Positions 12,115 to 59,884 of a stretch of 64,000 nucleotides of DNA are shown here, in pieces (the first letter of the stretch is position 1; each line of letters opens with the position of its first letter). The stretch comes from Azolla caroliniana. Its lineage: Eukaryota; Plantae; Polypodiophyta. Both the position numbers and the translations under genes were made by a program. Under the pieces are notes generated by a model. The model searched no databases. It saw only the letters and a list, made by a program, of their open reading frames with translations, and was not told the DNA's origin. Location: positions 10,168,001 through 10,232,000 of the forward strand of contig JBHGNT010000020.1 of NCBI GenBank assembly GCA_043228905.1, given 5' to 3'.

Positions 12115-12419
12115 ATCCAAAGTGTGGGAGCACGATTTGTGCTCTCAGGAACTTGTGGGGGGCTACTTTTGAGATTTTTACTGAATTTGACCCACAACCA
12201 AGAGAGAGGGGGGCAGGGGCATAACGTGTAAAAAAGGAAAACCTGATTTTTGGTTCCAATGAAAGGCTAGCATTTGTTATCTTGTTTGACATGAGACGAA
12301 AAACAAAGCAAAACTAAAACTAAAACTAAACAAAAAAAGAAGAAAAGAAAACCCAAGAAGAATCACTTCAGAGGAATCCCACACATTGTAGAAAAGAAGA
12401 AGAAGAAGAAGAAGCTGCC

Positions 12420-13208
12420 ATGGAAGCTCTATCACATTCACACCCATCAAGCTTCCATCACTCTTCTTCTTCCTTTTCTTCATCGGATCTACGCGGCACC
12501 CGTAACAACTACATTCGCTTGGGGCGCGACAACATTACCTTCTTCCATGGCTCCTCTAACCTCACCCTAAAGGTAAATGGGGACACTTGCCCTTCTTCTC
12601 CAAGGAGGAGGAGACCCATTGTTCGGGAAATTGTCGTGATGAGCCATAGTGCGGCCGCGGGTGGCTATGCGGCCGCATTGGCCGAGACCGGCCGGTCCCA
12701 AAATGTCCTAGACACCATCAATTCCGACATCCACAACCTCGGCTCTCTCTTGAATGACCCCAATCTCCACTCCTTCCTAGTCAATCCGACGGTCCTCGAC
12801 CAACACAAGAAGAGTGTGTTGGAAACCCTAGCCCGAAAAGCGGGCTTCTCCCCTTACACTCTCAACCTGCTTAACCTAATTGTCGATCGCAAGCGGACCA
12901 AGATCCTCAAAGATATAGTAGCCAAATTCGAGGAGCTCTACGACGAGATGACCGATACCGAGGTCGCCATTGTGACTTCGGCCGTGAAGATCGAGACGGC
13001 CCGGCTCGCGGAAATCGCGAAGAAGGTCCACAACCTCACGGGAGCCAAGAATGTGAGGATGAAGAATATCGTCGACGCCTCTCTTGTGGCTGGGTTCGTA
13101 GTTCGGTTCGGCAAGGACGGGTCCCGATTCGTCGATATGAGTGTCAAGAGCCAACTCGCCCGTATCGCCCAAGAGATAAGCTCAGTCGAATCGGCCATCA
13201 CAGTGTGA
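12420..13208 (+). CDS. ATPD: ATP synthase delta chain, chloroplastic (CF1 delta)
   Basis: Intronless 262-aa ORF with a Ser/His-rich transit peptide, then GYAAALAE, FLVNP, NLLNLIVDRKR, EVAIVTSAVKIE, NVRMKNIVDASLVAGFVVRFG, VDMSVKSQL (OSCP/delta family, plastid type). Confidence 0.95.
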   Translation: MEALSHSHPSSFHHSSSSFSSSDLRGTRNNYIRLGRDNITFFHGSSNLTLKVNGDTCPSSPRRRRPIVREIVVMSHSAAAGGYAAALAETGRSQNVLDTINSDIHNLGSLLNDPNLHSFLVNPTVLDQHKKSVLETLARKAGFSPYTLNLLNLIVDRKRTKILKDIVAKFEELYDEMTDTEVAIVTSAVKIETARLAEIAKKVHNLTGAKNVRMKNIVDASLVAGFVVRFGKDGSRFVDMSVKSQLARIAQEISSVESAITV

Positions 13209-14597: not shown

Positions 14598-17500
14598 TTA
14601 ATTGGCAAATGCAGCAGCTTCTTGCAAGTTCTGCAATGCCTTATCGTAATTAACAAATCCCATGAACCAGAATTCATGATTGTCCACAGTCAAAATTTCA
14701 ATGTATTTCTCAGCAGCATTGTTGGGATTTGATGATGGATTTGCCGCCTGTAGACTATCCAACGGAACTACGACCTGGAAAAGAAATACTTCTCTACATA
14801 TATGTATGTGCGATTGGGTTGGACGTATGTGCATGTATGCATTGGATGTATGAACGGATGTGTCTGCATGGTTGGTTGGTTGGTTTGGTTGGAAGTGAAC
14901 ATGCATGTTGGACTCTAGTTCTAGTTACAATCACTATCCTTAACATGACCCAAACCATCAGAATGGATAATCACAGTTTCACATAATAAAAACCCCACAC
15001 ATCCAATTAACTTAATCCTAGGAATAATCACATAACAAATCTCTCACAAGAAATAACAATCGAGTGACAGTATGTATGGATGAGTGGACACCATTATTTG
15101 AAGTGTTTTCACATGGCTTACTGACCTTGGGTTTTTTATTTCTTGTTACATTTCTAGTCCAAATACAATTACAATTACGAGAGATGGGTGTCCCATTTTA
15201 TAAGAATAGAGAAGTATCGGAGCAAATAATCATATCATTGGGACAATATAAGTTTTACATTATAGTAACACCCTCATGTAGCAATATAAGTTGTTCCTAG
15301 ACATTTAATAATTAGTTATTAAATGTCTAAGAGCAACTTATATTGCTACATGAGGGCCTTACAGTTACAGTTATTACACAAGAAACTACTCAATTTAAAA
15401 TGTTTACCTTGTAGTAGATCGAAGCTGTTTGCCCAGACTCCTGTTGGTACGATAGTGGCCGATCGCTACAAAATGCAATCTTCTTTGTAGATATGTATAA
15501 AGTACCAGGAATTGGACCGGATGAGGTTGAAAGAAAGCATGCATAAGTCTTGCGGAGTTCCTCTTCTGGGAGTGTATCAAAATTTTGTTTAAAAACTTTG
15601 TCAAGTCCACCTTCTGTTAATAATTTTGTTCCTTGGCTTAACCTTCCCAATGCAGTCTCTGCCATGCTGGGACCTGTTTTAACTATAGAAAAAAAACACA
15701 AAAAAGATAAGTGAAATGTAAGCAATAGGTGAAGTCACCAAAATGCCCGTACTTGTTGCGCATTTACTAGAATATCACCTAAGTTTTCCAATTTTACCAA
15801 ATATACCCTCTCGAGTACAAATTTCGCTACTCCAGAGGGGTATTTTGGTAATCTTTGAAACTTTCTGAGTATTCCAATAAATAATCAACAAAATTTAGGG
15901 GATATTGTGTCCTAATTTGGAACATGGGGCTTGGCACAGTGGTTCAGGTTCAAGTCCTATAAACTATAGGTCGGGAGTTCGACTACCGACCCTGCAATAA
16001 AATGTTCCATTAAGAGAAAATACATAAATATATTAGCCAGATGCACAAATGTAAATATGCATATAAAGCCATTTTTGTGTTGATAAAAGAAGATATGCAC
16101 AATACTCAAGTAGGGAAAGACCCTCTTACGATGTTGCCAAACATTTCCAGCAGTCTCTTCAGCCTTCTTTGAAATCTCATCAACCTTTAATTTCCACTTG
16201 GAAGTATAATCGGTTATGATATCTATTGGACCTGACATGGAAATATATAAGATAATGTTTTGTTAGACATGTTTTGCTCTTATCCAATGTATGATAAATG
16301 TCGTTTGAGAAGTTTTTACTCTAAGATGGCCATTTGACTTCAGTCTCAAAACCATGCACCTTTCCTAGTCCATTTGACAACTTGTAGAGTATCACTGATA
16401 TGGAAGTAAGTCATACACTAATGACAGAGAGCATGCATAATAAGAAAATTGAAGAGAATGAAGGATGTAGAGTACAGGTAGTGCGCCATTTTGATAACCA
16501 CAAACCCTAGGTCTATGTCTATAACATGGCCATGGACAATATGGTTGGCCAAAGGTTGTACAATACCTTATGGCCCTACTTTAACCTAAATTAACTCCTA
16601 GTAAAGTAATTATGCATATACACACAATAACAGAACTCTCAGGTAACTCGATGGCATTTTATCGCATCCCACATGCATAGCTATGCCACAGTGGCTATGA
16701 TCATAGCTCATAACAAAAGGTTATAACAACCTGACTATGGAGAGAAGTGGTTTTCAACACCAATGGAAGATTACCTTCTCTCAGATGTATCAAAACGCTC
16801 AATATATCACAATCGAAAAGCACTTCTCTCAGACTCAGTCCAAGCTATCAATTGATCAACATTAACAACCCAAAATATTCAGTTCCCCTGGATTATAGTC
16901 ACGTTATTAACACATCAACCTAAATCCAACCTCCACTATTGCTGATTGCATCCAAGCTATCGATACATCCGCATCAAGGCAAGATTCACTTCATTTGACT
17001 TGCATTCAACCTATCTAGTGCCAATACATTAAAACTAACCTAACATTCAAGCGATCAAATTGAAAATCTAGAGTTTCCCACACCCTTTATGCTTCTTGAG
17101 ATTAATTTTGGAGAAGCCTTTCCAATGAATTCAAAGTCAACATCAAACTAAGCTTCACTGAATCTCTTGGATTGCATTCAAGCTATGCCAATACAGCAAC
17201 ATCAAAGCCACAATTCAATGCAATGCACCAAATCCAAATCTAACTTCCCACAGCCTACAAGGAGAATCAACATTCACATGGTCAACCACATAATTTCTCC
17301 GATCATATTCACATGAATCACTTAATGCCACAATCAAACATCGTGTATATTGAGTCTATCCTGTTGTTGCTCTCTCTTTTGCTTAATCAACATTAGGCAT
17401 ATTCTTAAGATTGTTATCATGTATGATCTGATCTGATCTATGATAGCAAGTTTCCCACACATCTTTTACTCTTTTCCCAATGTCAATTTCGCACGTCTCA

Positions 17501-18144
17501 TGATTAAACAAGCAATTAATATGAACTCAACCTAAATAGCTACAAATCGAATCACATGAAAACAAGATACGTAACTATTTATAGAAGCTTAGGAAATCAA
17601 TGTATAACGACACACTAAAACATACAACATCAATATACGATCACACAAAGAAAATCATATGAAATCAGCATGAGGTTACGCATAGAATATTATGAAATTA
17701 ACATATGGCTAAACATAGAATCATATGAAATCAAAATAGAAATTACACATAGAATCATATGAAATCAAAATGGAGCAACGCATATAGCATAGTTATATAT
17801 GTTGATTTCACATGATTCTATGTAGATGTGTATATGTAACATACGATCATGCAAATTCCCTAAACCCTAAAGCACCACCACATATATATATATATATATA
17901 TATGAGATGAACAAATGTCACACTTACTTTTCCCAGTGAAACCAGAGGCAGGGGAAGCAGTTATATAAGGATTTGCAGTAGCAGGGGGAGGGCAGGAGGC
18001 CGATTCATGTTGGCCGACACCCTGCCCAATGGAGGGATCCTCTGGCTTAGAAGGTGCTCCCCATTGCCCTGTTTCTGCATATGAAGATGAGGATGGGGGA
18101 TCTAATTGAGGATAAACAATGGGGTTCTGCTGGCTTGAGCTCAT
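14598..18144 (-). CDS. GRAM-domain GEM-like (GLABRA2 expression modulator / ABA-responsive) protein
   Basis: Phase-consistent exons 18144-17928, 16231-16130, 15682-15408, 14774-14598. Motifs NVWQHLKTGPS, GRLSQGTKLLTEGG, KTYACFLSTSSGPIPGTLYIST..IAFCSDRPL, YYKVVVPL, EKYIEILTVDNHEFWFMGFVNYDKA. Confidence 0.95.
15271..15356. repeat. Near-perfect 86-bp palindrome (tiny MITE-like hairpin) in a GEM-like intron
   Basis: CCCTCATGTAGCAATATAAGTTG...ACATTTAATAA pairs with TTATTAAATGT...CAACTTATATTGCTACATGAGGG. Confidence 0.85.
15735..15912. mobile_element. Degenerate Mutator-like MITE in a GEM-like intron
   Basis: Inverted core TTACCAAATATACCCTCTCGAGTA / TACTCCAGAGGGGTATTTTGGTAA, resembling the 19534-19662 element. 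Ends and TSD are not resolved. Confidence 0.55.
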
Positions 18145-18244
18145 CTCCTCTTCTTTTCTTTCTTTCTTCACTTGGAAGTTGGATAGGAAAGGGGGGGGCA
18201 GCTTCTGTCTGATTGTCAAACTTCGATCAGCAAATGATTGATCT

Positions 18245-18246
<2 letters not shown>

Positions 18247-18292
<46 letters not shown>
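18247..18292. repeat. (GA)n microsatellite upstream of the GEM-like ATG
   Basis: Direct inspection. Confidence 0.95.
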
Positions 18293-18296
<4 letters not shown>

Positions 18297-18511
18297 TCAG
18301 TGGAGACACCCCCCCTGTTCTAATTGTGTGCTTCTCAAGAATGGTCCCAAGGGCATTTCAGGAAATAAAGAAAACACAACTCCACACATACATATGTACT
18401 TAATTATAGCTTTAAAGATTAGACCAAAAAGGCCCACTACCTACCCTATCAGTACCTTATACTATGTGTCCATTTGGTTGAATAGAGTCTAGATCGTTTG
18501 TAGGGTCAAAG

Positions 18512-19662: not shown

Positions 19663-20133
19663 TATTATTAACTACCACATCACAAACGAAAAATGTGGTA
19701 ATGATGCCGATAGGCCGGTGATAGCTTTGGGGGGTATTTGGGTAAAATAATTGAAAGGTGAGACACGTAGGGGGGGGGGGTAATTTGTTTTATATATATC
19801 TAAAGAGGGGAGATAGAGGCTGCTATTCTTGGACATATTCTAAAAGGGGAAGGTAGATATAGAGATAGGGGTATTCCAGGAAATATGGAAAATTTGGAGG
19901 CCCCAGAGAGGCAGGGGAGGGGCATTTTGCGAGAAATATTCCAGAAACCTGAGGAACAGAGTAAATCTGATTGAATAGGCAGGCAGGCAGAGGCGCCCAT
20001 TTGAATCACCCCTCTTTGCATCTCCCTTCTCCCTCCCTCTCCCCTAATCAATCAATCAATCAATCAATCAATCTGCTGTCTCTCGCCGTCTTCCCCCCAA
20101 ATCCGTTCTTCTCTGCATCTTCTGTGTTGATCC

Positions 20134-23100
20134 ATGGACAAGACCAGGCGAGACGAGCAGGAGGCTTATGAGTACTCAGAGGATGTGAAGAGGAAGATCC
20201 ATCGCTTGAGTAAGACCCCACATCCATCCATCCATCATCATTCATCATCATCCATTATTAATCGGCACTTCAATGATTCCTCAAAATCATAAAAATCAAT
20301 AAACTTTAGCCTAAATAAGAAGAAGAAGAAGAAGCGGCAGATGGTGGCAAATGGTCATTTGTACATGTATATGTATATGCATACCATGAAGATAAATCTC
20401 AGTATTACCTGAACCCCAATGGGATGCTGTTTATCTTCTCTTTTTAATGACCAAATAAACATGCAGATTGGATCTTTTAATAGGAACAAAATGGAATAAT
20501 AATCACAAAGTAACGTAGAAATCTGATGGCAAGAAAGAACTTTAAAACAAAAATGGGCGATGGACTTAATCCTAAGGCAGAGCCAAGGAAGTTAAGACAA
20601 AACAAATTAACAGAAATGTGTGATGGTCGCAGAATGCTACATTAGATATGACCAAAATGATCTCCAAATGAGCAAAATGGGAGCAATAAACTATGCACAT
20701 TAATATTCGGAAAAGTACTTAATTTGTTTGATGTGTGTGAACGAAAAGATGTTCAATTTTTTGTTCAGGTCTGAGCAAGAGATTCTACCTAAGAGCTTCA
20801 CAAATCAAGGTTCAAAGAAACAATGGCGCGATTGTGGCTGCCAAGCTACGGAACCGACAACTTCGGGCCACATTGGCGGCGTTACGAGAGAAGGAGCGTA
20901 ATGCACTCGGAGCCAATGACCTTGTCCGAATGCAGAAACGTGTGGCGTGTCTCAAAGACCTCCATAATCGCCTCCTCGAGGAGGGGAAAACCAAAAGAAA
21001 GCTTGTAAGTGTTGCCATGCTACACAACTACACTCTTATCTTGTTCTCCTTGTTTTTTATATCCTTGTTGATACTTGTTTATTGACCATACTAGATAAAT
21101 TCGATGCCCCCTACAACATGTAACGATTGGTTTGTCGACAATACTTTTGCTTAGACATGTGCGCTCTCCATCGCTACTTCCTAGAATACAGTACACATTG
21201 GTTATATGTGACATGTCCTTGTTTTAGCTGATTTCAAGCTTGGTTCTACTGTTGATTTGACTTGTAGCATGAGTGGGAGTGATGGGGCTAAAGAAGTTGT
21301 GATTGTTCTTTGTTGATGAGCTTGCGTTGTTGTATTTGTTGTCCAACAACTTCTCCTCATATCACTTGAGTTCTAGCAAGAACAGCCCCAAGCACAGTTG
21401 GTTCTCATATTCCATTACTTTGTGTAGTGGACATAAAGCAATGGTTAAAGAGGCAATCATATCTCCCTCTTATTTAATGAAAAACAGTAAAAAAACATAG
21501 TGTTCTTCAGATTCCATTCGCTGATGACACAATCAGCAAATTCTTTCTTCTAGAGAGAGAAAGAGACAGATTTGACCAATGTGCATGGGTTAATAATAAA
21601 TACACTAAAGTGAGAAAGAAAGAGAGGTTTATATATATAACCCCATTTCTATTTTCTCTATTAGTTGGCAGAGTGTAAAACAGAGGCGGAGATGGCAGAA
21701 ATCGATGCTCAAGATGTACTGGATCAAAAGAGCCCACCTCTGTGCAAGTATAAGGAGCTTTCATCCCAAGTTCAAGAGTTGAAGTCTCAACTTAGAAAGG
21801 CTCGTGACATGGACTCGAAATATCAAAAAATGCTCAAGCCTATGCTCGATGAACGTACCATCTTCGATGCCAAAGTATGAATGACCATACAATTTGCATA
21901 ATTTTAGTGACATTATGTGTCTTGGAAATTCATAATCCTTTATCTTTATATATAGGGGTGTGCTATATGTGTGAAAGAATACATGCATGTGTCTGTATGT
22001 ATGTATTATGCACATGTCTCTGGCCATGTGTCTATAAGATTCATATTTTAATACTAAAATATAGGGCAGTGTATGTGTATGTAGATGTATGTATTATATA
22101 TCTCTCTTACAATATGTGTGTTTAAGATACATATATTAATATTTACATATTGGGGTCTGTATGCGTATGTATGTATGTATGTATGTATTTCTGTGTGTAT
22201 GTATGTCTATGTCTATATGTACATACGCATGTAATGTACATTCTACATGAGTGTATGTATGTAGGATAAAGGAATAACACATAGCATATTGATAATGTGA
22301 TTTAAACCATATTTCCTATTTATGTGCATAAAGGAGGATGTTATACACATCATGATTCACTGCACATTTATCTTATAATCGAATAGGTAGATACTATGGC
22401 AAGAAATGTTGCAAAGAAGCATCAAGAGTTTGATGAGCTCACGTTTATGTACCATGATGCGACACGAACACGCGAATTAGCTCGAGGAAAACTTCACCAA
22501 GTAGGTATGAGTCCCTTATAAAGGAAATAATGATGTATTGTGCTTATTGTCGCTGCATGTATGATTCTCATACTCTTTGAAAGAGGAATCAATCATTAGT
22601 GAGAACACGACAAACTCATCTCTTTTCTCTGAAAGGAATTCGGGACGAGTTAGGGTGGTTTCTTATCTCATCTCATGTCAAATAGTCTAAAAGTTTTCCA
22701 TAGGAAAATTATTCTTATTTCATAATCTAATTTTCTTTTCTATTCATGCATTATCTGAAAATATATTTGTTGAATGGTATAGTACTGACTATTTTTCTTG
22801 GCTACCAATATATAGCTTCTTAAGGAAAACTTCCCTCCTGGAGTTCGATACCATCTTCTCTTTGTAAAGGTTCTGATTTCTTACCTATAAGACATTCTGG
22901 TGACATAACCAATCAAAACTTTGCTAATGATATATAAATGGTGTGCACAAATTGAACTCACTTTAGTTAGGATTTGAGAGAGTTATCAGCAAATTGATTT
23001 GAATTTTGTGACCATATAGTCTAGCAAAAGCAAGAATAACAAAACTATACTTGAATTGGAGGAAGCTATAGCAAATATCACCACAAAGTTTCGAACGAAG

Positions 23101-24427
23101 AATATGAAGGAGCTCTACTTACACTTAATTGAAGAAGAAAGAAAAAAACTTTACATGAGCTATTATATTAATGAATTAAAGGAGATGGTGGAAAAGCTCA
23201 AGGATGGCTCTACATCTTCAAAGGTATTTACATATACGAGATTTATAATTGTTTGAGGTCATGTGATGCTCTTTATAATGTTTGGTTGTAAAAATGTGGC
23301 TTTACAAATCACTTTCCACTACTATTTCCCCTTAAGCAGGAATGATAAAAAACATATCAGACGCAATAATAAGATCATGACATGATGATATTCTGATACA
23401 AGAATAGAGGATTGGTTTCATTTTGAATTCTGTAAAGATGGTGAAATATAATCGTGTCACAAGAAACCAAATGTAACTGAAATGTTTCTTCTCTGATTTG
23501 ATTTCATAGAATTTGCATGAGAAAGTGATCAAATTAAGAAGGAAGATTTGCAAGCCATCGGACACTAAAAGAGAAGAGGCACAAACGGATGCCAAGACTT
23601 CTTGCAAGCCCAACAGTATTGCAAACAATACAGTTACAAAAGGTCATAGGGAAGTAGGTGTGAAACATAAGCTTTTCAAGATGGTCAAAGGATTACAAAA
23701 GCTTATTGATAAGATCCAAGAAGGAAGATTATACAATGTGAGCGGAAAGATTTGTGTAAAGTTATTCAAAATCTTTGGGTTCATTACTATTCTAAGTATT
23801 TTGTAATTGGCCTACATAGGAGAATCTAGTCCATCCAGAGTTTGCTTGTTTATATTGTCTCATGTAAAAACAGGGTCATTGTGTATGTGCATGCATGGAT
23901 GTATGTGTATGTCTGTGTGCATGCCAACTCTATAACTCAAACACATATGTTTATGTGTGCACATTCAATTATAAATGGATGGATGGTTATACATCAGGGA
24001 CATAAATGAATGTACATATACATGCATTTTCACTATATACATAACCTTGTATGTATATAAGTTTTTATCTTCTTACATTTCATGAAATTGACAGAGTGAG
24101 AATGAACAAGTAAAGAGAATGTTGTTGCAGCTTGAGCAAAAACTAGTCCAAATACTACAAGTAAATATATTCTATCCATTTAGCATAGTATTAGAATGTT
24201 AGAGTTTATGATCAATACAATATACTATTTTATAGTTAAATGTTGCAAGTAATTTGACGCATTTTACATTATAACATGACTAGGGAGTCCAACAATGGAA
24301 TGATGAAATGAAAGCTGAGAAGGCTAAGGAACATTATGCAAAATTTCATAGAACAAGCATAATGATACGAGAGAACTATGAGAAAAAACTTGGATCATCT
24401 CAAGATGATAAAAGTCCACGAACATGA
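20134..24427 (+). CDS. Coiled-coil protein resembling CCDC151/ODAD3 (outer dynein arm docking complex DC1 family)
   Basis: GT-AG exons 20134-20209, 20769-21004, 21665-21874, 22387-22500(or 22504), [possible small exons ~22584-22654 and ~22816-22869], 23020-23223, 23510-23737, 24095-24160, 24284-24427, open throughout. Motifs ERTIFDAK..KHQEFDELTFMYHDATRTRELAR, LEEAIANIT, YINELKEMVEKL, GLQKLIDKI, LLQLEQKLVQIL resemble, in order, the CCDC151/CCDC114 family as recalled (not searched). The gene is well supported; the family call is moderately supported. Confidence 0.65.
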
Positions 24428-25296: not shown

Positions 25297-28200
25297 TTAT
25301 GAAAGACGCAAAGCGACTTCTTGCAGAAGTGCTCGTTTCTGTGCAGCACTAAGAACACCTTTGCTCTCAGCATCTTCCAATACATCTGCCATGATTGCTG
25401 CTGCATGTTGTAATGGTTCCTCTGCAGTCCTCTTCAACATGAATACCTTTACATCCATTGATTACAACATTCATCAAGAAATTTTCTTTTCTTTTGAACT
25501 GTCATAATTCAAAGAGAGCACCCATCTAAAGGATTATTTGATAGATTCAATATTCATCAAGATTCTGATATTTTTTGAACTGTCTACAGGATTATATATA
25601 CTGTATAGATTAAATATCTGTTACTTTTAAACAAACAAAGACTCAAAAGAGCAAGCATTGAAAGGATTATTAATTTCTTCCTATACCTGTCCATGATGAG
25701 TAATCTCAAGGATACCAGGTTCTTGAATCCATGGCTCTCCATCAATTTGGACAGGAAAAGCATTATCTATGTGGATTTGGATGACCTGACCTTGACCAAG
25801 TCTCCGTGGACTTGAAAATCCCATCTGTATTAATCAAGGACATATAATCCATGACAAAAGAATGAAGAACTCCCAAAGATTTACAAAGCAAAAGTATGCA
25901 GGCAAATTTTTAACATATGAATCCCCAACAGTTCCAGCGTTTCATATATATTTTAGCTTTTTTTGCCGAATATTACTAGTAAATTATTCAAAATTTTGTA
26001 AATCTGGGGATTCTTTCTGAAACTGTCATCATAAGAATATCCTAGAGTTTCCAAAACCTTAACATATAGTGATCTGGGAAAAATTCAGCCCTAATTTTAT
26101 CCATGGCTGCCACAAATGGCAACATCCCTATTACAAGAAAAATAAAGAGTGTATACCTGGAGTTTGCCTAAATGCCATGTTCCACAAATCCCAATAACTT
26201 CAAGACGTTTATCATGCATCGACTGTGGAAGAAAATCACCCAGATAATCTTCATTCTGCCATAAATCAACACCTCCCATGTAGCTTGGAATGTTTATCAC
26301 AACAATACCCTCGAGATCCTGTGGATGATATAAACGTAATTTGCTGTGGTCACTGAAAAGACACTTACATGGTTAAATACAAAGCCAAATGTTTATGGTT
26401 GCAAGTATTACCTCCAGTATCGGTACTTCTGACCCGTCGACATACAAGTGAAGATGCTTTGGCAAGTTAGCACATGCTCTATCCAAAATGTCTTTAGCAC
26501 CTTCCTTGGCATAAAGCATTTTGTTCATGAACTATTTTGAGATGAAAGGTTAGCATCAATAAATGGCAAATGTAAGATGTTTACTATTTGGATAATCTAA
26601 GCTATATGACCTACTACGATCACGTGCTTATATGATGGCAGCATATCTATATGCAAAACCACTGTAGTCTCCTGCACCTGAGCATCGAATCTAGTACTAG
26701 ATTCATTAAGATTAAAATGGATATCATGTATAGCAAGTTCCAGGTCTATGGAACAGAACAATCCCTCATGTATAAGACAATTCATATAATTTAATGCATC
26801 TGTACAGTAACTAGTTGTGCGGTCCAATCATGATAACATTGTGATTAATTTTCTTAGTTACTCTTAACACGAACGCTCATCAATCTTCTAACTTACTTGA
26901 CTGTAGAACCTCTCTGGATTCTCTTCTCGCAATAAATGGATGTCCAGCGCGACCTTTGCATCACATCCAATACCTGAATGTTTTGCAAAAATGTTGAGCC
27001 CCAGTTCATGAAGCTTAAATTTGAGGGACGTCAACAATACAGGAAGCATTACCTAGGTAATTGTTCATACCCTTCTTCCTTCTGGATTCTATGTTGTTAT
27101 TGGAGCTTTTATCAGTAATCATTACCTTCCATCTATCCAGCACCGTCACTGCAGCATGATCAATTTGGGTCAATACCATTGATAGCCCACCTTTCCTCTT
27201 CACAACTCCATAACCCCCACCCCACGAGAGAACCCTTGCAAGATCATTTCCGGTTCCTATAGGGAGAATAGCAACAGGAGGGGGAGAATCGTAGTTTTGT
27301 TTTTCAATCGCATCAAGCACCCAACCAACAGAGCCATCGCCACCGCATACAAGAACCCTAAAATGCGATACATTTTTGAAGAATTCTAACCCTACTTCTG
27401 GACCTTCAGTTGCACTTATTTCAAAAACCTGTTAGTTTCAAAAAGTAGAAATTGATGTTCTGTAAGCTCAATAGAGACTCAGTAAACTCTTGGATTTACA
27501 GATTGTGAAAATTTAATCTTCAAAAAATTAGTATATTAATTTATAAACTATGCAGGCTCTTTTTCATATATTCAAAGCTGAACTTTCTAATTAATATGGA
27601 ATGCTAATCGGCTGCAATACACTTGTTACATAAACTATCACCAAAGATTTTAGAGTACCACATACATATGGTCACCTCCAACAACCTCGGAAAAGATGTT
27701 AATATCAAAGACATAACAATTGGTATGTTGTGTGAATGCTGAGGTGGATTCAAACATTTCACATTGTGTTAAATAATCTAGATACATGCACGAAAAATGC
27801 ATAGAAGATCCTCATCCTAACATTCATATAGTCTAGCGAATGTAGGTGTCTAAAAGATAGATATAATTATATTTTTTAAATTGGTCATTTGTTTTGAAAA
27901 ACTCCTTGTCAGATGTGCCTGTTTGGATGTTTCATTTCATGTTTGAAACCAAATTCCAACGATTATGTATAATCAGACAACTTCATCCTTTTAGCCCATT
28001 AAGCCAAGGAAAAGCTAGTTAGATACCAGCTAAAATCACATGTCAGTACTTTCTGGAGAAAAACAAGTAAGCCAAGGACCTCGTCCAATAATCAAGAGGC
28101 TCATCTCATATATGGTGACTACATTATCCCAAAACCTTCGAGGAAGTTGTGCATGATGTCGATCAACAATGATCACAAGTGGATACTAAGCATCCTAGTT

Positions 28201-31200
28201 TGGATTTTATAAGTTGCATCCTGAATGGAAGTTATCAGTCCGTTTTGTAATTTCAAGGATCACTCTCGTCAGGGACAAGCATGATCAGCCTGCACACAAA
28301 GAGTCGGGCATATGACCTGTATAAAGTATCCCAATACAAAAGCAATTTTGTCTAGCAAGGCAATCTAACCTCAGAACATGAATCATCAATCTGTTTGATT
28401 GGTGAAGCTACATGTCCTGCTCAAGACTTCTCCCTTGGGTGAATAGTTTGGAAAATAACTGAATACACTGTTGGCCATACTTGATGTTGGGAAAGCATGG
28501 ACACAGGTATAGGGGACACTGCTATAAGAAAACCAGTATTAAAAACCTGCACAATACTCGGTAGCTAGGGCATCACCTCCAGATTAATTTGAATAATACC
28601 ATCACCGTCTCGCAAAGCTCTAACAGAAGAACAGGCCTGACACGCTTTGCAGAGAAAAATCTATGCTCATGTTATCAGCCCAAGATGTCCAATGACCTTG
28701 TTGACCTTAACCAGTCTTCTTGGTCCTGCAAACTTCAAACTTTATAGTAAACATCATACATGTGCCTGCATCAAATTTTCTATGTTTTCAAGACTGACAT
28801 GTAAAGCAGTTTCTTTGTAGTGTTGCAATGTTTCCGAATGCACTATACATGATCCAAACTGTCATTAGATAGGCTTATGAGGCAATAAAGCTGAAAAATA
28901 TTGCATAGGAAAATCTGAACGCCTCGGACCAGCACACTACATGTTACAAGCTGAAACTGTGAAGGCTTCCTTTGGAAGAAAGTTGACAGACTAAACAAGG
29001 TAATACAGAATGTTGATGTAGACTCTCTTTTTAGAAATCATGGGAGCATGATACATGGCATCTCCCACAAATTGAAAGATATGCGTCATGCTCTAGATGG
29101 ATGCCAAACATTAGGAATTACCAAGGTGCATGTACAAGAGGACAAGACGGAGTCTCCATTATGTATGAGAAAGTAATAAACATCGTAGTAATCATTTGCA
29201 AATTTGACAGAGGCCAAAGATACATATGGGTCACCATCATGAAACTCTAAAATGAGAAGGCAGCTTAATCTTTGCTCTGAAACACTCAAATGGGCAGACC
29301 CCTCAGCACAAGAATGGATGGATGTTTTGCCCAACCAGGCAATTAGACCAACGTATTACCTAGGTCAATGTATTAATACGATAGCATCACATAATCCTCA
29401 ATATTGAGTATATTACAAGTGACGGAAAGCTTAGGCCAGACCCACATTCAGACATCCATGTCCAACAGGGTACAACGTGCCATTATGCTAGTGTGGCTCA
29501 CAAATTTGGGTAACATGCTTCCTAATCATTGCAAACAATCCACCTTTTACACGTGTAGTTGTTAACAAATATAGGATTCCACGTGCCTACAACATATATA
29601 TTAACTTGTAAAACTCCATATGTGACTGTCTTTGCAATGGGAAAATAGTAGATGCAAAATAAAAGTAAGCTAGAGAAAAAAACTGAAGGCAAAAAATGAC
29701 AGTTTACATAACACGTTGAGACACTATAGTGTACCATGCTGATGCTAAATGTTCTTCCATGCTGAAAATAGAGATGTGTGGCTGGAAAAATACTAAGGAG
29801 AAAGAAGAGAATGTTAACCTGTGCAGTCTTAACCAGCCTGAGATAGAAGTACATGCAGCACTCTTGTACATGAAATACACTGAAATTAGAGAGGCTTTTC
29901 ATCAGTTACAACATAGGTAGTGCACTGCATTTCAAGAACTCATAAAGAGGACACCCCCTTCACCTGGAGGCTTTTTCAAGCATTAAGACATGGGTAGTGC
30001 ACTGCATTTCAAGAACTCATAAAGAGGACAGACCCTTCACCTGTAGCTTTGGGTATCTTTTTCCATGTTAAGTAGAGTTCTGAGCAGAGCTCACTTACAC
30101 TTTGATTCCCAGTTACAATTAGATAGTGCATTTGATTTTTTATATCACTTCTGTTTGGTTCTTAGTTTCCTCACATTAGTGCTGCAGAGAGTACTTTGTA
30201 AAAGCTTCAAGGTCCCATGGGTTATTTTAGTCCCCTGCAGATCATCATTGTACAAAGCTGAAGCTGTGTTCCAAGGAATGAAGCTCTATTCAACTAATGA
30301 GGTATTCTCACAGGTTTTACAGTGGAAGATAACCATTATCAAATATACAAGAGAACCAAATGGCCTCTGACAAGACTAAGACAGTGAAGCTCCAGTAAAG
30401 TACATACTCCTCTACTCTGATATATTCTCCAAAAGTTGGTCACCACCACCTTTCTCTGGATGGGCAATTGATATCACAAGTTCATGAACGAAGAGAACAA
30501 CAAACCAGCATATTTGCAAACGAAAATTGCTTCACAGACGTATTTTCCACAAGTACTGACTACAAGTGGGAGATAATTCACTGACATGCTGGACATAATA
30601 TGTAAAGCCATAAAAGATATGTATATGATTTGAAAATATTCCTGATTTTCTGTAGTATCAGACATATGGACCAAAACACTAGGCCCTACCTATTCCATTA
30701 TCCATACACAAAGAACAATGGGTGACCCTATTCCTACTTGAGGAAGATAAACCATTGTGAAGAACCAACACTGAAGAGAATATGCTTTCTGGCCACGAGA
30801 CCAAGCCAAACATCAAAGATATGTTATCATTTTTCAACTGTGCCATGCAAGCCTCCATTACCTAACTTTTTTATAGCATTGTGTTCAGCGGCATGGTGAA
30901 GGTGAAAGTATGTATAGGATAGTGTGCAATGCACAAATAACTAAGGAGCATCCCATAATGATAATTGGCACTATTCAAGATGAATCAACAATTAGCAGGC
31001 TCTTTGACACTCCTACTAGATACCATAATTATCCTGTTATATGGTCCTTGTTTTTACATAAGGTATCACAGAAAATCTCATTTTAACATGGCTTCCTCTA
31101 AACATTAATATATAATGTACCTATCTTGCTTTCTCATCAATATGAAATAAAAGTTTACCATTTTTACATTGCAATAGATGAATGAAATAAAAATATAAAC

Positions 31201-32446
31201 ATTCTCCAACCTGAATAGGATTCAAAAGCATATTTAGTTGTCTCTTCAGTGTTCCCCCAAGTTGAGCTCCACTCTTTTTGTTCACAAAAACAAGTAAAGG
31301 TCTGGCATCGGAAGAAATATCTACCAATGCATATCTAGAACATTTCTCAGCCTCCTGATTCAAGTTTCCACTCGACTCAACACGTGGTGTCTGCTCATTT
31401 TGATTGTCAACTGTCAATTGAGATTTGCCCTCTCTCTGAAGACCATTCTCAGCTTGATTATCAACTGACGATTTACCCTCTCTTTGAGATCCATCGAGAG
31501 TACTGTTGAGTTTAGAATGAGCATCAGCATCTGATTTAGCATTAACTGAATCTACAGTATCACCAACTGCCTCAACATTCAAATCTGAACAATGAGAAGG
31601 CACTCCACTGGTATTGGAAGAACTACTCAAAGTGCTAGATTGAGATTTCCGAGGTTTGCTTTTTCCTCCTCTTTTACTTATTTGTCGCACAGTTGATGCA
31701 ATCTCAGTAGCACCATGCGTGATTGAGCTGAAAAATCCTCCACCGATATTCTTATCTAATGTATCCTTCACAGAGAGAGGAGATACAATAAGCCTCTTAA
31801 AAGCACCAAGATCGCATAAATCATCAGTCTCTCGCTGGGGAACAGAATGACAACCAACGTGAACTTGTCTTTGGCACCATACACATTGCCAAACAGCAGC
31901 CGGAGCAAGAAAAAAACCCGTGCAAGGCTCATTACAAATCATGCAAACATTAGGTTCGTCTTCTTTATCATCCCATTTCTCGATCCATTGGTGCTTGAGA
32001 AACTTACATTTCCCAGCTAAAGCAACATTCTTACAATCTTGATGGGCACTCTTAGAGCAACTCAGGTGAGCTCCAAGACCGCATATAGAGCATCGACATA
32101 TTGCCGACATGGAGGTTGAAAGTGTCTGGGATGGTATAAGAGACTCTAAGCAAACACAACAGGTGGAAGAGCTGCCAGTCTTTTGTGTCGATTCTTGCGT
32201 CCATTTATGACGTATTGATGAGATGCCACCAGAGCTTGATCTATGCTTTGCATATGCAAACTTAATCCAATGAATAGAAGCTCTTCTTTGCAATTGAAGC
32301 ATCAATACAGAGAAGGTAAAGATGCCCACAAGCACTGTAGTGAACCATGCTGGAGCCTCGATGAATCTATGGATCGCTATGCGAAAGAATCCATATGCTT
32401 CATTAAATGAAGGTGGATACAAGAACCTTATATAAGGATTTTCCAT
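25297..32446 (-). CDS. Diacylglycerol kinase, plant cluster I (DGK1/DGK2-like: N-terminal TM, two C1 domains, catalytic and accessory domains)
   Basis: Exons 32446-31211, 27428-27053, 26973-26897, 26531-26412, 26318-26157, 25824-25687, 25446-25297. Motifs [89 protein letters not shown]. Confidence 0.95.
29891..30045. repeat. 77-bp tandem duplication inside the large DGK intron
   Basis: GGTAGTGCACTGCATTTCAAGAACTCATAAAGAGGACA at 29916 and 29993. Confidence 0.85.
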
Positions 32447-33212
32447 CCAGAATTACCTCCCTACATACACATATAAAGTAGGCATAATCTTAATTTCATT
32501 ACATTTGCAAAAAATTCAGTAAATTGTTTTCGTGTCTGTTAAATGTCACTCCTTTTAAGTGATTCCCAGAAATGCCACAGTTTTCCTTAATGAATAACTG
32601 GTCACTAACAGGCTTAACAAAGTAGTATGCCATATAAGGAATACAATGTTGAATCAAGATTCGGACTGTAATTACACAACACGCCACAAAAATATCAATG
32701 TTCATTAACAGACGCTTTATGCTGATTAGTCAGGATTTGGACACAATTTGATTTGTTGGTCTTGATTAATCGATTCATTAGAGATAACATTACTTGATTA
32801 ATCAATTATATTAGTTGAACATTATCTATTTCGCCAATTAATCAACTTAATCAACAACTCATTACTTAATCTGCACATTACTCAAATGATAATCAGTTAA
32901 TTACCATCCAAATCTTGACAATAATCTGTGAATTCTTTAGATAACCGGCTACTTAATTATATCTATTGGTTCTCAGGGTATTTCAGAATAATTAAGAAAA
33001 AAGAATGGCATTTTCAAAATCAATACACACACACACACACAAACACACGTGAAGAACTCCACAGCCAAATCCAGAGCATCAGATGAGCTCATTGTGCGTG
33101 AATACATTCACGGGTATATCAAGATTTGAACCGAGAAAAGGCCGAGTTCTTCTTCTTACGTATACATATACATAAGAAATAACGGTTGAACGCAAACAAA
33201 TCAAATATGTAC

Positions 33213-39681: not shown

Positions 39682-40731
39682 TTACACTGAGTAGCTAACG
39701 ACTTCTACATGCCGTGCCGCGGCCTCTTCCATCAACCTTTTCATTCCACCGTGCCCCATATTCAGTTCTAGGGCTCTCCGGGTCTCGCTCGCGTGCACCC
39801 GCCCGATCCAGAGGTACACCACGTTGGTCCTGAGTGCGTCGGCGAAATCCGCGCAATCCTTCCAAATGTGACCGATTGCGTCACACCACATGCACCGCTG
39901 CCTAGCCGGCGGCCTCCGGTCGTGAGGTTGTTCGCCGCTGTCTCTCTGGGCCTGTGCAATCTGCAGGTCGCACACCATCTGGGTCAGCTCCTCTAGAGCC
40001 GCTCCTCCGGATGGGCCTTTGACCATGTCGTTCGATGCCGACCTCGACTCCAGCCAAATTCGGGTCTCTTCCTTCCTTCCGGCTGGCACCGATACCGGCT
40101 CCTCGAGTCTCCTCGCCGGGACCGGTCCTGACTCCGACGAGCTTTCGTCTCTCCACTCGCGCCGTTTGCCGAAACGACTGCAGACCCATTTTACCACGGC
40201 CGAGTCTGCCGTGAGCCCTTCGTCCGTCTCCAATAGGGGACCCACCTTTTCCCTGTCGAGCGCGTCCACCGACTTGACAAACAGTAGTACTCGACTCGTT
40301 TCGAGCACGGTCCGGTCCAGCGTCGACAGCCGCGCGAATCGTTTTTCAAACTCTTGGAGGAGCGCCGACATGTTCCTCCCTTTTCCGGGGCTTTCCACCC
40401 ACGTCATGAAGTCCCGCCTCGACAGCCAAAGCGAGTCATCAAACCTGTACTTCTCGAGGAGCTGCAGCTCGAACTCCTCCCAAGTCTGGCATCCGGCCAG
40501 CACCTCGAGCACCTCCGCGTGGATGCTCGACGTCACCACCCGAGGGAATCCGGACAGCCGCCTGTCCATCGGAATATCCCTCATGATCATTTCGGCCCGG
40601 TAAGCCTCCAAATAACTTATGGGATTCTTCCCACCGAATCGGCCTATGCTGCCGACAATCGATTCAATGGCTCTGTCGAGGGTACCCGTCCCCTCGCGAG
40701 CACTCACCAGCCGGTTGACGGCTACCGCCAT
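39682..40731 (-). pseudogene. Retrotransposon gag with CCHC zinc knuckle
   Basis: 349-aa ORF with CMWCDAIGHIWKDC (CX2CX4HX4C). The same frame continues past a single TAA (39684-39682) to about 39381. Confidence 0.8.
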
Positions 40732-40780
40732 TGCCTATGCTAGTTCCGATCCCCTCATCTTCCGACTCATTTGCCGCCTG

Positions 40781-44592: not shown

Positions 44593-45048
44593 TTTAAAGA
44601 ATCAATGGTGATTCTTGTGTAGTGGAAGAGATGTGTGTTATGTGTATGTGTGAGAGGAAAGAGGAGAGGAGAGAAACACAAGATGGATAAGAGACAAAAT
44701 GAAGTACTCAAGAAGAAGGAGATGTATATTAACAAGGAGATTCATATAATAAATGAAAATGTAGCATTAGAAGGAGTCACAACTGACTTAGTATGGAGTA
44801 TGAGGGTGCTTTATATAGAGTCACCCTCTCTCTTCATTAACTTACAACAACCACTCTCTCTCTTGGGGAATGCGAAGACTCATAGTCATGGGGAATATGT
44901 AACTCATTAGTTATGTGTCATAGAATATGATTCTATGACACATAGTTAATGTATAGAGAGTAGTGGTGTGACTCTTGACCTTTGAGTAATCACGGATTCT
45001 CAAAAAGTGTGTTCACACGTTGCACTATGTTGAGCTTGATTCTCAACA
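44593..45048 (-). repeat. 3' LTR of outer copia
   Basis: Matches 51375-51833; the terminal TG is mutated or lost. Confidence 0.9.
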
Positions 45049-46372
45049 CGCCCCCTCAAGCTCAACTCGGGCTCGTATCCGGTTCGGACGATCTCCAGTG
45101 TCCGCTTCGACTCGTACCCGGTTCGGACGGTATCCGGTTCTTGCTTGTACCCCCCCTCAAGCTTGGCAAGTCAGGAATCGTCAATCCAAGGTCTGACATG
45201 AATTGCCGAAGCTTGTCGGCTCCTAAGGCTTTGGTGAAGATGTCGGCCGTCTGAAGATTCATGTTGATGTGTTGAAGGTCGACATCTCCGGCCTGTACGC
45301 GCTCCCGAATGAAGTGATAGTGCACTTCGATATGCTTCGTGCGTGCGTGGAACACCGGGTTTCGAGCCAGATAAATACTGCTCATGTTGTCGCAGTAAAG
45401 GGGAGTCGTATCCTTGATGGGAACGCCCAGATCCTTCAAAATCCTCTTGAGCCATACGGCTTCACATGCAGCTACGGTTGTGCCCTTGTATTCCACCTCC
45501 GTACTCAAAAGAGTGACGATAGGCTGCTTCTTACTACTCCAAGAAATCGCTCCACTACCGAGGGAGAAGACAAATCCGGAGGTCGATCGTCAATCGGCTT
45601 TGTAGCCATCCCAGTCCGCGTATGTGTACCCTTTGAGTCGTATTGGTGTGGTTGATGCGTATAGAACGTCGTAATCCATTGTTCCGCTCACATATCGTAA
45701 TACTCGCTTAGTGCAATCCAAGTGAATGCCGTGTGGTTTTTGCATGAATTGGCTGAGGAGTCCGACTGGATAGCTAAGGTCGGGTCGAGTGATCGTGAGA
45801 TAGATGAGGCTCCCAATCAGTTGATGATATTGGGTCGGCTCGCACTCGTTTGTGCCAGAGTCAGCATCTAGTTTGAGGTTTCGATCGAGAGGCGTGGCGA
45901 CCGATTTGCACTCAGTCATCCGGAACTTGTATAACAAGTTGAGAATGTAGTGCCGTTGAGAGATCGTAATGCTGGCCGGAATCCGAATTACTTCGATGCC
46001 AAGGAAGTAATGGAGCTCCTTCATGTCCATCATCTCAAATTTTCCGGAGAGGAGGGACTTGGCCTTGTTGATGTCGACTAGACTTTCACCTCCAATGACT
46101 AGATCATCCACATATAGGATGATGACAATTAGGCTTCTAGAGTCGTGTCATACGTAGAGGGAGTTGTCGGATTTCGACATTCAAAAGCTAATTTGATGAA
46201 GATATTGCGTAATATTCGAATGCCAAGGACACAGTGCTTGCTTGAGGCTGTAGAGAGGCTTCTTGAGTTGGCATACGGCTTTTGGATAAATGCGCAATTC
46301 GAAGACGGGTGGTTGTACCATGTACTCCTCCTCGTCTAATTCGCCTTGAAGAAAAGCGTTCTTGACGTCCAT

Positions 46373-49300: not shown

Positions 49301-49528
49301 GAGCATTGAAGTACTGTTAGTACTTCGGTCAGTCCTTCTAGGACTTGTATAAAAGTGCTCACTGAGCACGTCTTATGTACAGATTGAGTATTATTGTTGA
49401 ATATAGTTTTTTGTGTTTCTCTCTCTGTCTCTCCTGTGTATACCGTGTAAGCTCAAGCTCTCCATTAAACCTGAGTTTCCTCTCTTCTGTTCGTTCTTCA
49501 TACTTGCTTCCGCACGTTTCTTTTTACA
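46373..49528 (+). mobile_element. 5'-truncated Ty1/copia element nested in opposite orientation (integrase C-terminus, RT, RNase H, 3' LTR)
   Basis: [68 protein letters not shown]. Several TAG stops and a frameshift. PPT CTTGAGGGGGAG then LTR TGTTGAG...TTTACA (49157-49528). Confidence 0.92.
49157..49528 (+). repeat. 3' LTR of inner copia (372 bp)
   Basis: TG...CA ends, preceded by a PPT, internal TATAAAA. The outer integrase resumes at 49529. Confidence 0.88.
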
Positions 49529-51374
49529 GTAGATCCAAGTGTGCCTTGAGAAGTCATCGATGAAGGTTACATAATATCGGCATCCATCAAATGTTGTTGT
49601 TTGGGCCGGTCCCCAACATCAGAGTGAATTACGTCGAGTATGCCTTTGCTCACATTCCTCTCCTTCGGAAATGGTTGCCGAATTGGCACGCCGCACATAC
49701 GCCTTCAATCTCTCGCTCTTTGAAGGTCGGGAGTCCGATGACGACTCCTTTCAATTGCGTTGCCTTGAGCTTTTGAAGATTGATATGGCCAATCCGCTTG
49801 TGCCATAGCTCTATGTCGGTGCCGGGTTTGAGGCCCTTTGTGTACATGGCCGATTTCACCTCGTTTGACTCGAGGATAAACATTCGACCTTCCTTTCAAC
49901 CCCGAGCAATGAGTCGGCCTTCCTTCTCGATGAAGCAACCACCTTGGTTGAATCGAACTTGCATCCCTTGCTCCACAATTTGGCTGACCGAGACCAAATT
50001 CTTCGTTATGGTGGGTACATGTAATACATTTTTGATGCAAGTTTGTTTGCCATCTTTCCCGAATGGGACATTCCCGACATGCCAAATCGGATGAGTGGTA
50101 TCGTCTCCGGTCTCGACATAACCGGGTTGATCCAGCTTCCGCAAGTCTTGGAACAACTCTTGATGGGACGTCATATGGTTCAAAGCACCAAAGTCGACGA
50201 ACCGTACGTCTTCCGGACCGGAGGCATTAGTTGATGTAGAAGCCGACATAGAGTTTGCTTTATGTCTCATCACGAATAGTGCTCCGTAATCATCGTACTC
50301 GGAGTTGGTGGTGTAGTTCGTGAGTTGTCGGCTTGTGGACGCCGACTCACGCATCTTCTTTCGGCACTCTTCTTCACGGTGGCTAACTTTGCCGCAATAT
50401 CCGCATTCGATTGAGGTTTGTCGGCTCAGACCGGAATGGTGGCTCCCCCCTCTTCCGAAGGTTCCTCAATGGCTTCCGTCTTGATGCCGAAATTGCGAGT
50501 TGTTTTCGTAAGTCAGGCCTCATCCGTCTCGTCCTTGGCCGAACCGGCCTCTTCTTGCACAACCACGTCCTCTTCCTTCGTCTGAATGCGTGTAGAGGAT
50601 GTGGCCTTCCGAGGCATTGCTCCTCGTTCGAACATGGTTTTCTTCGACCAACAACATGGATTGAAGATCGAAGAAGGAGGGTGGATTCTCCCGTGCTAGT
50701 ACAAAAGTCCGCATCGCGCCGAATCGTGGTGTAAGTCCGCCAAGACATATTTGCACCATCTCATCATCCTCCAGGTTTACGCTTATCGAGCCGAGCGAAT
50801 CACAAATCTCCTTGATCTTCAAGGTGTAGCTCGTGACAGACATATCCTTTTGTTGGATATTATTCAACTCTTGGCGGAGTTGAAGCTTCCTCGCAATTGT
50901 GTTGGCGGCAAAAATCTTTCATAGATTCTCCCAAGCTTTCTTTGGCATCCCGGCTTCGCAAATGTAGCCAAGCATGTGGTCATGTACATGTCATATCGCC
51001 AAGCAATACATTACTCGACTGCCGCTTGCTCCCATGTTGCATAGTCAGTGTCTTTCGGGTCGGGCCGATTTTCTTGTGCTCCTTTGATGTAGCTCCAATA
51101 CCCTTGGCTGACAAGGTATTGGTGCATCTTGTACTCCCAAGATGCAAAGTTGTTACGATCCAACTTCTCGCTAGGGAGAGCGCTCTCCATTTGAGTATTT
51201 ATTGTCGATGTAGATTTCTTCCTTCTTTTCTTTTCCTTCTCTCTCGAACACGAGCTATGTAATCGCACTACGATAGTGATGAGCCAGTTCTTCTTGAACG
51301 TTGGCGTAGAGCACAACACACGATCATGATGAGGCGAGTGGGCTAGATCGAGCTACCAAATCACTCTAATACCA

Positions 51375-55269: not shown

Positions 55270-59884
<4,615 letters not shown>

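What the first reader, a model, noticed from the sequence alone, without database searches (positions are those of the whole stretch)
20134..24427. Intact outer-dynein-arm docking-complex-like (CCDC151/ODAD3) gene in a plant lineage thought to lack outer dynein arms
Seen: eight to ten GT-AG exons splice into one open coiled-coil protein of about 400 aa that the ORF track only shows as fragments. Motifs (ELTFMYHDATRTRELAR, LEEAI, YINELKEMVEKL, GLQKLIDKI, LEQKLVQIL) occur in the order recalled for the DC1/CCDC151 and DC2/CCDC114 family. Established: land-plant sperm flagella lack outer dynein arms, and these lineages lost outer-arm heavy chains. Inference: a docking-complex subunit retained without its cargo may have been repurposed, for example as an axonemal 24-nm ruler or a multilayered-structure or spermatid protein. 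The central part looks shortened and divergent, and one motif is more DC2-like, so a chimeric or fast-evolving paralog is possible.
Basis: partly seen in the sequence, partly recalled or inferred. Interest (0 to 1): 0.8.

Follow-up and report, generated by a model that had tools for sequence, protein, structure and literature searches.

The report
Fern docking-complex-like gene without outer dynein
This fern gene is intact, spliced and conserved in three other fern species, and is likely a diverged subunit of the complex that anchors outer-arm dynein motors in flagella; searches of this genome found no such motor but two likely partner genes, so the pair would have a different, untested job, probably in sperm flagella.

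Summary
The gene is real: nine GT-AG exons (20134-24427) give an open 443-aa protein. Transcript-type contigs join 7 of 8 introns, and orthologues in Adiantum and Ceratopteris are about 60% identical. It is probably (about 85%) a diverged ODAD/DC1-ODA10-type coiled coil. One exon hits Pfam ODAD1_CC (E 7e-4, below cut-off), another has a docking-complex-1 chain as its only PDB hit (E 0.013), and ESM-Atlas neighbours are ODAD1_CC in 3 of 3 queries. Against: none of 4 fern orthologues hits that Pfam model, and full-length profiles and the fold search find no docking-complex chain. Searches found seven dynein heavy-chain genes and no outer-arm type. A complex prediction gives only weak support for pairing. 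Best guess (45%): a dynein-free docking-complex-like heterodimer on sperm doublet microtubules, like Chlamydomonas ODA5/ODA10 on armless doublet 1. Location, tissue and function are untested. My ten searches found no report of a DC1/ODA10-type gene in land plants; a weak moss DC2 hit is in print.

The parts
19991..20133 (+). 5' untranslated region (at least this long), CT-rich with TCAA repeats
   Evidence: An X4 contig covers it from 19991 and runs on into exon 1; sequence
20134..20209 (+). Exon 1, aa 1-25, start codon
   Evidence: 18 of 25 residues invariant in the window protein and 3 fern orthologues
20769..21004 (+). Exon 2, aa 26-104, basic N-terminal helix
   Evidence: no ODAD1_CC hit
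21665..21874 (+). Exon 3, aa 105-174, start of the main heptad coiled coil
   Evidence: Atlas 22 of 30 neighbours ODAD1_CC, top 0.96, low recognition value; found the Adiantum orthologue; no docking-complex hit in PDB; heptad signal p 0.002-0.004 uncorrected
22387..22500 (+). Exon 4, aa 175-212, DC1/ODA10-type motif region
   Evidence: Only PDB hit of 177,635 sequences at E<=10 is 7moq_X 'Docking complex 1 protein', E 0.013; no Pfam hit
22816..22869 (+). Exon 5, aa 213-230, short exon at the shortened centre
   Evidence: Joints on both sides in X4 and on the 3' side in X1; matched in Adiantum and Ceratopteris
23020..23223 (+). Exon 6, aa 231-298, helix-break-helix region
   Evidence: Pfam PF21773 positions 146-205, E 7.2e-4, 19.2 bits, cut-off 27; Atlas 24 of 30; no docking-complex hit in PDB
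23510..23737 (+). Exon 7, aa 299-374, variable linker predicted non-helical, then a conserved helix
   Evidence: 5 of 25 invariant at aa 326-350, 18 of 25 at aa 351-375; model of the orthologue; joints
24095..24160 (+). Exon 8, aa 375-396
24284..24427 (+). Exon 9, aa 397-443 and stop
   Evidence: an X4 contig starts at 24284

Best explanation
This is an intact, spliced, fern-conserved gene that likely encodes a diverged DC1/ODA10/ODAD3-type coiled-coil protein, predicted with weak support to pair with a DC2/ODAD1-type protein of the same genome, and the pair would bind sperm flagellar doublet microtubules as a dynein-free structural strand. Shown: gene structure, splicing in close relatives, conservation in three named fern species, two DC2-type genes, no outer-arm heavy chain among seven dynein genes. 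Inferred: ODAD ancestry (about 85%) and pairing with the C10 or C19 product. Untested: sperm expression, axonemal location, 24-nm spacing, and the job itself. Of the possible jobs I favour restraining or patterning doublet sliding in place of the lost arms.
For: The complementary subunit type is in the same genome. C10 exon 4 passes the Pfam cut-off (32.2 bits), and a C10/C19 exon profile has 7moq_Z, the other docking-complex chain of the same entry, as best PDB hit (E 1e-4). The C10 gene is spliced in 3 of 4 runs, including X4, which also splices the window gene. Purifying selection: 14 synonymous of 28 displayed exon differences against 20% synonymous sites, p 4e-4; C10 11 of 24, p 0.003. 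Complex prediction, Adiantum orthologue residues 135-217 with C10 exon 4: weak support, 0.48 against best control 0.01; runs agree in at least 75% of contacts, partner pLDDT at least 81. The mark was reached by 51 of 78 solved and 2 of 108 mismatched pairs, but at 0.60 or under by only 5 of the 78 and by all 4 mismatches that passed (of 180). A like complex is solved, so the pass may come from memory. Net charge is +33 for this protein, -13 and -5 for C10 and C19. No outer-arm heavy chain: DHC_N1 hits only the I1-beta and I1-alpha loci, and Dynein_C gives 7 distinct genes, the number of core inner-arm chains in PMC9237703. Precedent: ODA5/ODA10 sit on proximal doublet 1, which lacks outer arms, independent of them, with gold spacing peaking near 24 nm (PMC4603930).
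Against: The best Pfam score is below the cut-off, and only 1 of 8 exons scanned hit the family. None of 4 fern orthologues hits PF21773 at E<=10. The orthologue and two full-length fern profiles find no docking-complex chain in PDB, nor do exons 3 and 6. The genome search with PF21773 did not list this gene. The fern DC1-like profile against C10/C19 scores 14.1, below 26 of 30 block-shuffled controls. Atlas recognition values for the exons (2122, 1979) are under the 2300 mark. The central spans differ (66 aa here, 108 in the model, 131 in C10), which strains an in-register dimer. In X4 and X6 the main C10 contig skips exon 5, which shifts the frame. In Chlamydomonas the shown role of ODA5/ODA10 is cytoplasmic maturation of outer arms, and loss of ODA10 left the 1-2 bridge unchanged. 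No tissue or localisation data were found.
Confidence: 0.45

Rival explanations
1. Same ancestry and partner, but the pair would act in the spermatid cytoplasm as an assembly or maturation factor, now for inner-arm dynein I1/f.
For: ODA5/ODA10 mature outer-arm dynein in the cytoplasm (PMC4603930). I1/f and outer arms share many structural features (PMC10266980). Both I1 heavy chains are in this genome.
Against: No paper I read reports an inner-arm role for this family. Human ODAD1 loss left the 96-nm repeat apparently unaffected. I1/f has its own coiled-coil anchor, MIA, and a FAP100-like gene lies on C11 (name recalled).
Confidence: 0.18
2. An ODAD-derived coiled coil co-opted for a plant-specific sperm structure (spline, multilayered structure, basal bodies) rather than the doublets.
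For: Basic, helical and shortened; conserved in ferns but strongly diverged from solved docking-complex chains.
Against: No direct evidence. The likely partner is kept too, which fits the ancestral lattice-binding dimer at least as well.
Confidence: 0.13
3. Not an ODAD homologue: a fern-specific coiled-coil protein whose weak hits come from coiled-coil composition.
For: All full-length HMM and fold searches are blank. Coiled-coil exons also hit unrelated families at E 0.03-0.13. No significant match to C10/C19.
Against: The family was named before testing and came first in three different methods on three different exons, in collinear order. The full-length Atlas score is 0.97, which shuffled proteins reach about once in 100.
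Confidence: 0.13
4. ODAD-derived but now non-flagellar, for example a microtubule-binding protein of meiotic or vegetative cells.
For: The tissue of the runs that hold spliced contigs is not given.
Against: All named orthologues come from ferns, which have flagellate sperm; no seed-plant hit among 5703 candidates (a word-limited search that also found no bryophyte or lycophyte).
Confidence: 0.08
5. A decaying relic with no current function.
For: About 42 residues lost from the centre; the frame-shifting exon skip in the C10 gene in two runs.
Against: Open frame, splicing, excess of synonymous changes and about 60% identity with near gap-free alignment to Pteridaceae.
Confidence: 0.03

Closest known systems
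Chlamydomonas ODA10/ODA5 complex (ODA10 is homologous to CCDC151/ODAD3)
   Same: A DC1-type and a DC2-type coiled-coil pair; sits on a doublet region without outer arms, independent of them (PMC4603930, passages).
   Different: It serves outer-arm assembly, and no outer-arm heavy chain was found in this genome. PMC3842995 (passages) reports no ODA10 orthologue in Physcomitrella and takes that as support for an outer-arm role. Orthology could not be tested.
Outer-dynein-arm docking complex DC1/DC2, ODAD3/ODAD1 (PDB 7moq chains X and Z; Pfam PF21773)
   Same: Window exon 4 is closest to chain X, the C10/C19 exon closest to chain Z; long helices with heptad signal.
   Different: Below the Pfam cut-off; 443 aa against 555 for chain X; centre about 42 residues short of the Pfam model; no cargo found.
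Unannotated fern proteins KAI5075533.1 (Adiantum capillus-veneris), MCO5559077.1 and MCO5556442.1 (A. nelumboides), KAH7404496.1 (Ceratopteris richardii, KP509_15G028900)
   Same: Orthologues; the three full-length ones are 60-62% identical with the same shortened centre.
   Different: All are named 'hypothetical protein' with no Pfam domain on record. Ceric.15G028900 has no GO term in a supplement of PMC13434465.
MIA complex (FAP73/FAP100), anchor of inner-arm I1/f
   Same: A heterodimeric dynein-docking coiled coil, proposed to share origins with the docking complex (PMC10266980, passages).
   Different: No DUF4200 hit on 8 exons scanned; a separate FAP100-like gene lies on C11.

Membership tests
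Pfam PF21773 ODAD1_CC (ODAD1/ODAD3 sequence family) | Score at or above the curated cut-off of 27 bits | tested here: not met
   Best exon 19.2 bits, 1 of 8 exons scanned; 0 of 4 full-length orthologues hit at E<=10. The spliced window protein itself was not scanned.
Pfam PF21773 ODAD1_CC (ODAD1/ODAD3 sequence family) | Remote homology by language-model features | tested here: met
   24, 22 and 27 of 30 neighbours carry ODAD1_CC; top scores 0.93, 0.96, 0.97; leads only, no E-value
Pfam PF21773 ODAD1_CC (ODAD1/ODAD3 sequence family) | Long alpha-helical coiled coil | tested here: met
   Eight helices in a low-confidence model of the orthologue, mean pLDDT 51.5; heptad signal at p<0.05 (uncorrected) in 5 of 20 windows. 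Not specific to the family.
DC1/ODA10/ODAD3 subtype | Closer to DC1-type than to DC2-type chains | tested here: inconclusive
   Exon 4 sole PDB hit is 'Docking complex 1 protein', E 0.013; no significant match to the genome's DC2-type genes; full-length profiles blank
DC1/ODA10/ODAD3 subtype | Orthology in a tree with ODA3, ODA10, CCDC151, ODA1, ODA5, CCDC114, CCDC63 | not testable with these tools
   No search returned these reference proteins as usable sequences
Outer-dynein-arm docking complex (functional) | Heterodimer of a DC1-type and a DC2-type chain | tested here: inconclusive
   Candidate partner genes on C10 and C19; cross-species fragment prediction weak, 0.48 against 0.01
Outer-dynein-arm docking complex (functional) | Outer-arm dynein present as cargo | tested here: not met
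   DHC_N1: 19 matches of 21 candidates, all at the I1-beta and I1-alpha loci; Dynein_C: 7 distinct genes. The five without DHC_N1 were not classified directly, and the assembly may be incomplete.
Outer-dynein-arm docking complex (functional) | Binds doublet A-tubules with 24-nm periodicity | not testable with these tools
   Needs localisation or cryo-electron tomography
MIA complex (FAP73/FAP100, DUF4200) | DUF4200 domain | tested here: not met
   No PF13863 hit on 8 exons or 4 orthologues; the best genome hit is a different gene on C11, 28.7 bits, under the cut-off

The most novel reading that the evidence does not exclude
Ferns kept both chains of the outer-arm docking complex, remodelled and under selection, long after losing outer-arm dynein. 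The complex therefore has a dynein-independent function of its own in the axoneme, and fern sperm isolate that function naturally.
Probability: 0.45. Interest if true: 0.78.

Novelty: new variant of a known kind. Interest (0 to 1): 0.58.

Why it matters
Docking-complex proteins are treated as dedicated outer-arm factors, and the reported absence of ODA10 from moss was used as support (PMC3842995). A conserved DC1-type gene plus DC2-type partners in plants without outer arms would break that rule. It would make an open question testable: what ODA5/ODA10-like dimers do on armless doublets. Ceratopteris has the orthologue (Ceric.15G028900), and gene editing in this fern is reported (PMC11638000, seen as a search listing only). 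It would also show that profiles built on BLAST or Pfam thresholds undercount ciliary genes in land plants. If the ancestry is wrong, this is an ordinary conserved fern coiled-coil gene.

Tried and rejected
Word-index search with exon 6 found nothing among 95 candidates, although the 62%-identical Adiantum protein is in that database. Blanks from this tool, including the DC2-type exon search that returned only one unnamed fragment of 79 candidates, therefore say nothing about absence. Run search: no RNA holder listed on record; the contigs were laid instead. A stop-containing candidate exon near 20633 was not included; the X4 joint skips it. Alignments A2 and A3 were misaligned and not used. 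The AlphaFold model was low-confidence (pTM 0.20); Foldseek found nothing at E<=0.001; the wide structural search was busy twice and not run. JGI metagenome scan: 187 pattern matches, none confirmed. CCDC103 (one match, E 0.82) and PIERCE (none, controls silent too) searches are inconclusive. Metallophosphoesterase, SKP1 and Nup107 hits were rejected as scattered or weak. No tissue expression for Ceric.15G028900 was found in the supplements of PMC13434465 (12 files searched, 2 cut, 4 too large to read) or PMC9477723 (9 files, 1 unreadable). Two papers were not held and bioRxiv supplements are closed; any of these could hold expression data or a plant docking-complex listing. Earlier-findings look-ups returned nothing.
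Full report
Observation. Reading the region gave an 8-exon open model. Laying four public runs on it showed contigs that skip exactly introns 1-7 and revealed a ninth exon at 22816-22869. Two of four runs (X4, X1) show spliced joints; X2 looks like DNA and X11 holds little. The runs are guessed RNA from close relatives, kept as contigs, so they give neither tissue nor level. Intron 8 was not among the displayed joints; it rests on the orthologue alignment. Two exons searched in the genome found only themselves, which argues against a processed copy as the source of the joints.

Conservation. A full HMMER search with exon 3 gave 4 hits at E<=0.001: a 95%-identical exon fragment, Adiantum capillus-veneris KAI5075533.1, and two hits I dropped as unrelated (a repetitive bacterial-type LysM protein and a short repeat protein). 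The Adiantum protein aligns to my model at 61% over 446 columns. Searching with it gave 4 proteins among 5703 candidates, itself included, all from ferns: two from A. nelumboides and one from Ceratopteris richardii. The three full-length ones are 60-62% identical to the window protein, least so in the linker at aa 326-350 and the C-terminal tail. Of the 28 exon differences displayed for X4 (40 of 221 rows were shown), 14 are synonymous against 20% expected, p 4e-4; that is a rough dN/dS near 0.25 on a subset. I infer that the host is a fern from these orthologues and from plant-type neighbours (neighbour names recalled). I did not determine the genus.

Family. Evidence for ODAD ancestry is consistent but individually weak. 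Exon 6 hits PF21773 at E 7.2e-4, 19.2 bits against a cut-off of 27, the only ODAD1_CC hit among 8 exons. Exon 4 has one PDB hit, 7moq_X 'Docking complex 1 protein', E 0.013. Atlas neighbours carry ODAD1_CC in 24, 22 and 27 of 30 for exon 6, exon 3 and the Adiantum protein. Against this, none of 4 orthologues hits PF21773; the orthologue, two profiles and exons 3 and 6 find no docking-complex chain in PDB; the genome search with the family missed this gene; and the fold search on a pLDDT-51 model was empty. Because the family was named in advance and tops three methods on three exons, I put homology at about 85%. I do not file the gene as a formal member. By an indirect register (read by eye, positions) the centre spans 66 residues against 108 in the Pfam model. 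A chimera is neither shown nor excluded.

Partner genes. The family search of the genome found two other loci, on C10 and C19. They give models of 490 and 464 aa, 55% identical, with matching intron phases. C10 exon 4 passes the Pfam cut-off (32.2 bits) and C19 exon 4 scores 22.3; the other 6 of 8 exons scanned do not hit the family. Their joint profile has 7moq_Z as best PDB hit (E 1e-4) and a CCDC114 chain at E 6, so they are DC2/ODAD1-type. C10 is spliced in 3 of 4 runs with 11 synonymous of 24 displayed coding differences. X3 holds the in-frame form; the main contigs of X4 and X6 skip exon 5 and shift the frame, which I cannot explain. C19 was not tested for splicing. The window family and C10/C19 do not match each other above shuffled controls, so this is not a recent duplicate. 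The complex prediction gave weak support only (0.48 against 0.01; calibration counts are under Best explanation). It used an Adiantum fragment with a C10 exon, and a like complex is solved.

Cargo. DHC_N1, which outer-arm beta and gamma chains carry (established knowledge; such chains appear as hits), matches only a C1 locus whose best PDB hit is I1-beta and a C13 locus, duplicated on C745, whose named best hits are I1-alpha/DNAH10. Dynein_C gives seven distinct genes plus four near-identical copies of one on contig C53. This fits the core of seven inner-arm chains and no outer-arm chain reported for land plants (PMC9237703, part 1 of 2 read). The five genes without DHC_N1 were not classified directly. 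A FAP100-like gene lies separately on C11 (name recalled).

Mechanism. Shown steps: gene, splicing, conservation, partner-type genes, no cargo found. Inferred steps: ancestry, dimer, flagellar location. Chlamydomonas ODA5 and ODA10 form a complex on proximal doublet 1, which has no outer arms, with spacing near 24 nm, although their shown role is cytoplasmic dynein maturation (PMC4603930, passages). I commit to a dynein-free dimer on sperm doublets that patterns or restrains sliding (0.45). The rivals are an inner-arm assembly factor (0.18), a spline or multilayered-structure protein (0.13), a non-homologous coiled coil (0.13), a non-flagellar role (0.08) and a relic (0.03). Whether the missing central segment is the dynein contact is untested.

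Print. PMC3842995 (passages) states that Physcomitrella has no ODA10 orthologue. The supplementary table of PMC4361367 (passages and table; column order was not preserved in the text) appears to give best DC2 BLAST hits of 5e-10 in Physcomitrella and 2e-4 in Selaginella, so a weak DC2-like plant hit is in print; I could not see whether it was scored as an orthologue. PMC10266980 and PMC4415241 were read as passages. Term look-ups in PMC3268115, PMC12849711 and bioRxiv 10.1101/2021.07.25.453666 found no 'docking'. PMC12012697 was read whole and adds nothing. Ten library searches listed no paper describing a DC1/ODA10-type gene in ferns or other land plants. The library lacks most subscription papers, and genome-paper supplements were only sampled.

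Verdict. A real, conserved gene, probably a new variant of a known kind, more interesting as one half of a retained pair than alone. Interest 0.58; 0.78 if the dynein-free complex is confirmed.

Noticed in passing
G000:C10 about 15097500-15103200 (-), L005/L006; G000:C19 7248049-7251720 (-), L007: Two DC2/ODAD1-type genes, 490 and 464 aa, 55% identical. C19 needs one GC-AG intron. The C10 exon-5 skip in runs X4 and X6 shifts the frame (253 aa); X3 has the full form.
   Followed up: partly
G000:C53 64-154 kb and G000:C12 0.78 Mb: Four near-identical copies of a dynein heavy-chain 3' end about 29.7 kb apart on a small contig, 97% identical to the C12 gene: a tandem amplification or an assembly artefact.
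   Followed up: partly
G000:C745 3-14 kb and G000:C13 10.06 Mb: A second, near-identical copy of the I1-alpha N-terminal region, probably a haplotig.
   Followed up: no
window 21257-21566: High-copy repeat fragment inside intron 2; contig depth in the hundreds to thousands in all four runs.
   Followed up: no
L060 (G000:C11 19.18 Mb): DUF4200 gene that reads like FAP100/CFAP100, the MIA anchor of inner-arm I1 (name recalled).
   Followed up: partly
window 14598-18357 (-), about 25400-32452 (-), 12330-13208 (+), 61798-63879 (-): Neighbours that read as a GRAM/GEM-like gene, a diacylglycerol kinase, chloroplast ATP synthase delta and a PPR protein (names recalled, not searched). None suggests a flagellar cluster.
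   Followed up: no
window 39682-40734 and about 44600-51700: Retrotransposon pieces, including what look like nested copia-type elements with similar terminal sequence near 44600 and 51400 (label recalled).
   Followed up: no
window 57608-58090: A Rab-type GTPase exon flanked by an apparently duplicated intronic stretch (label recalled).
   Followed up: no
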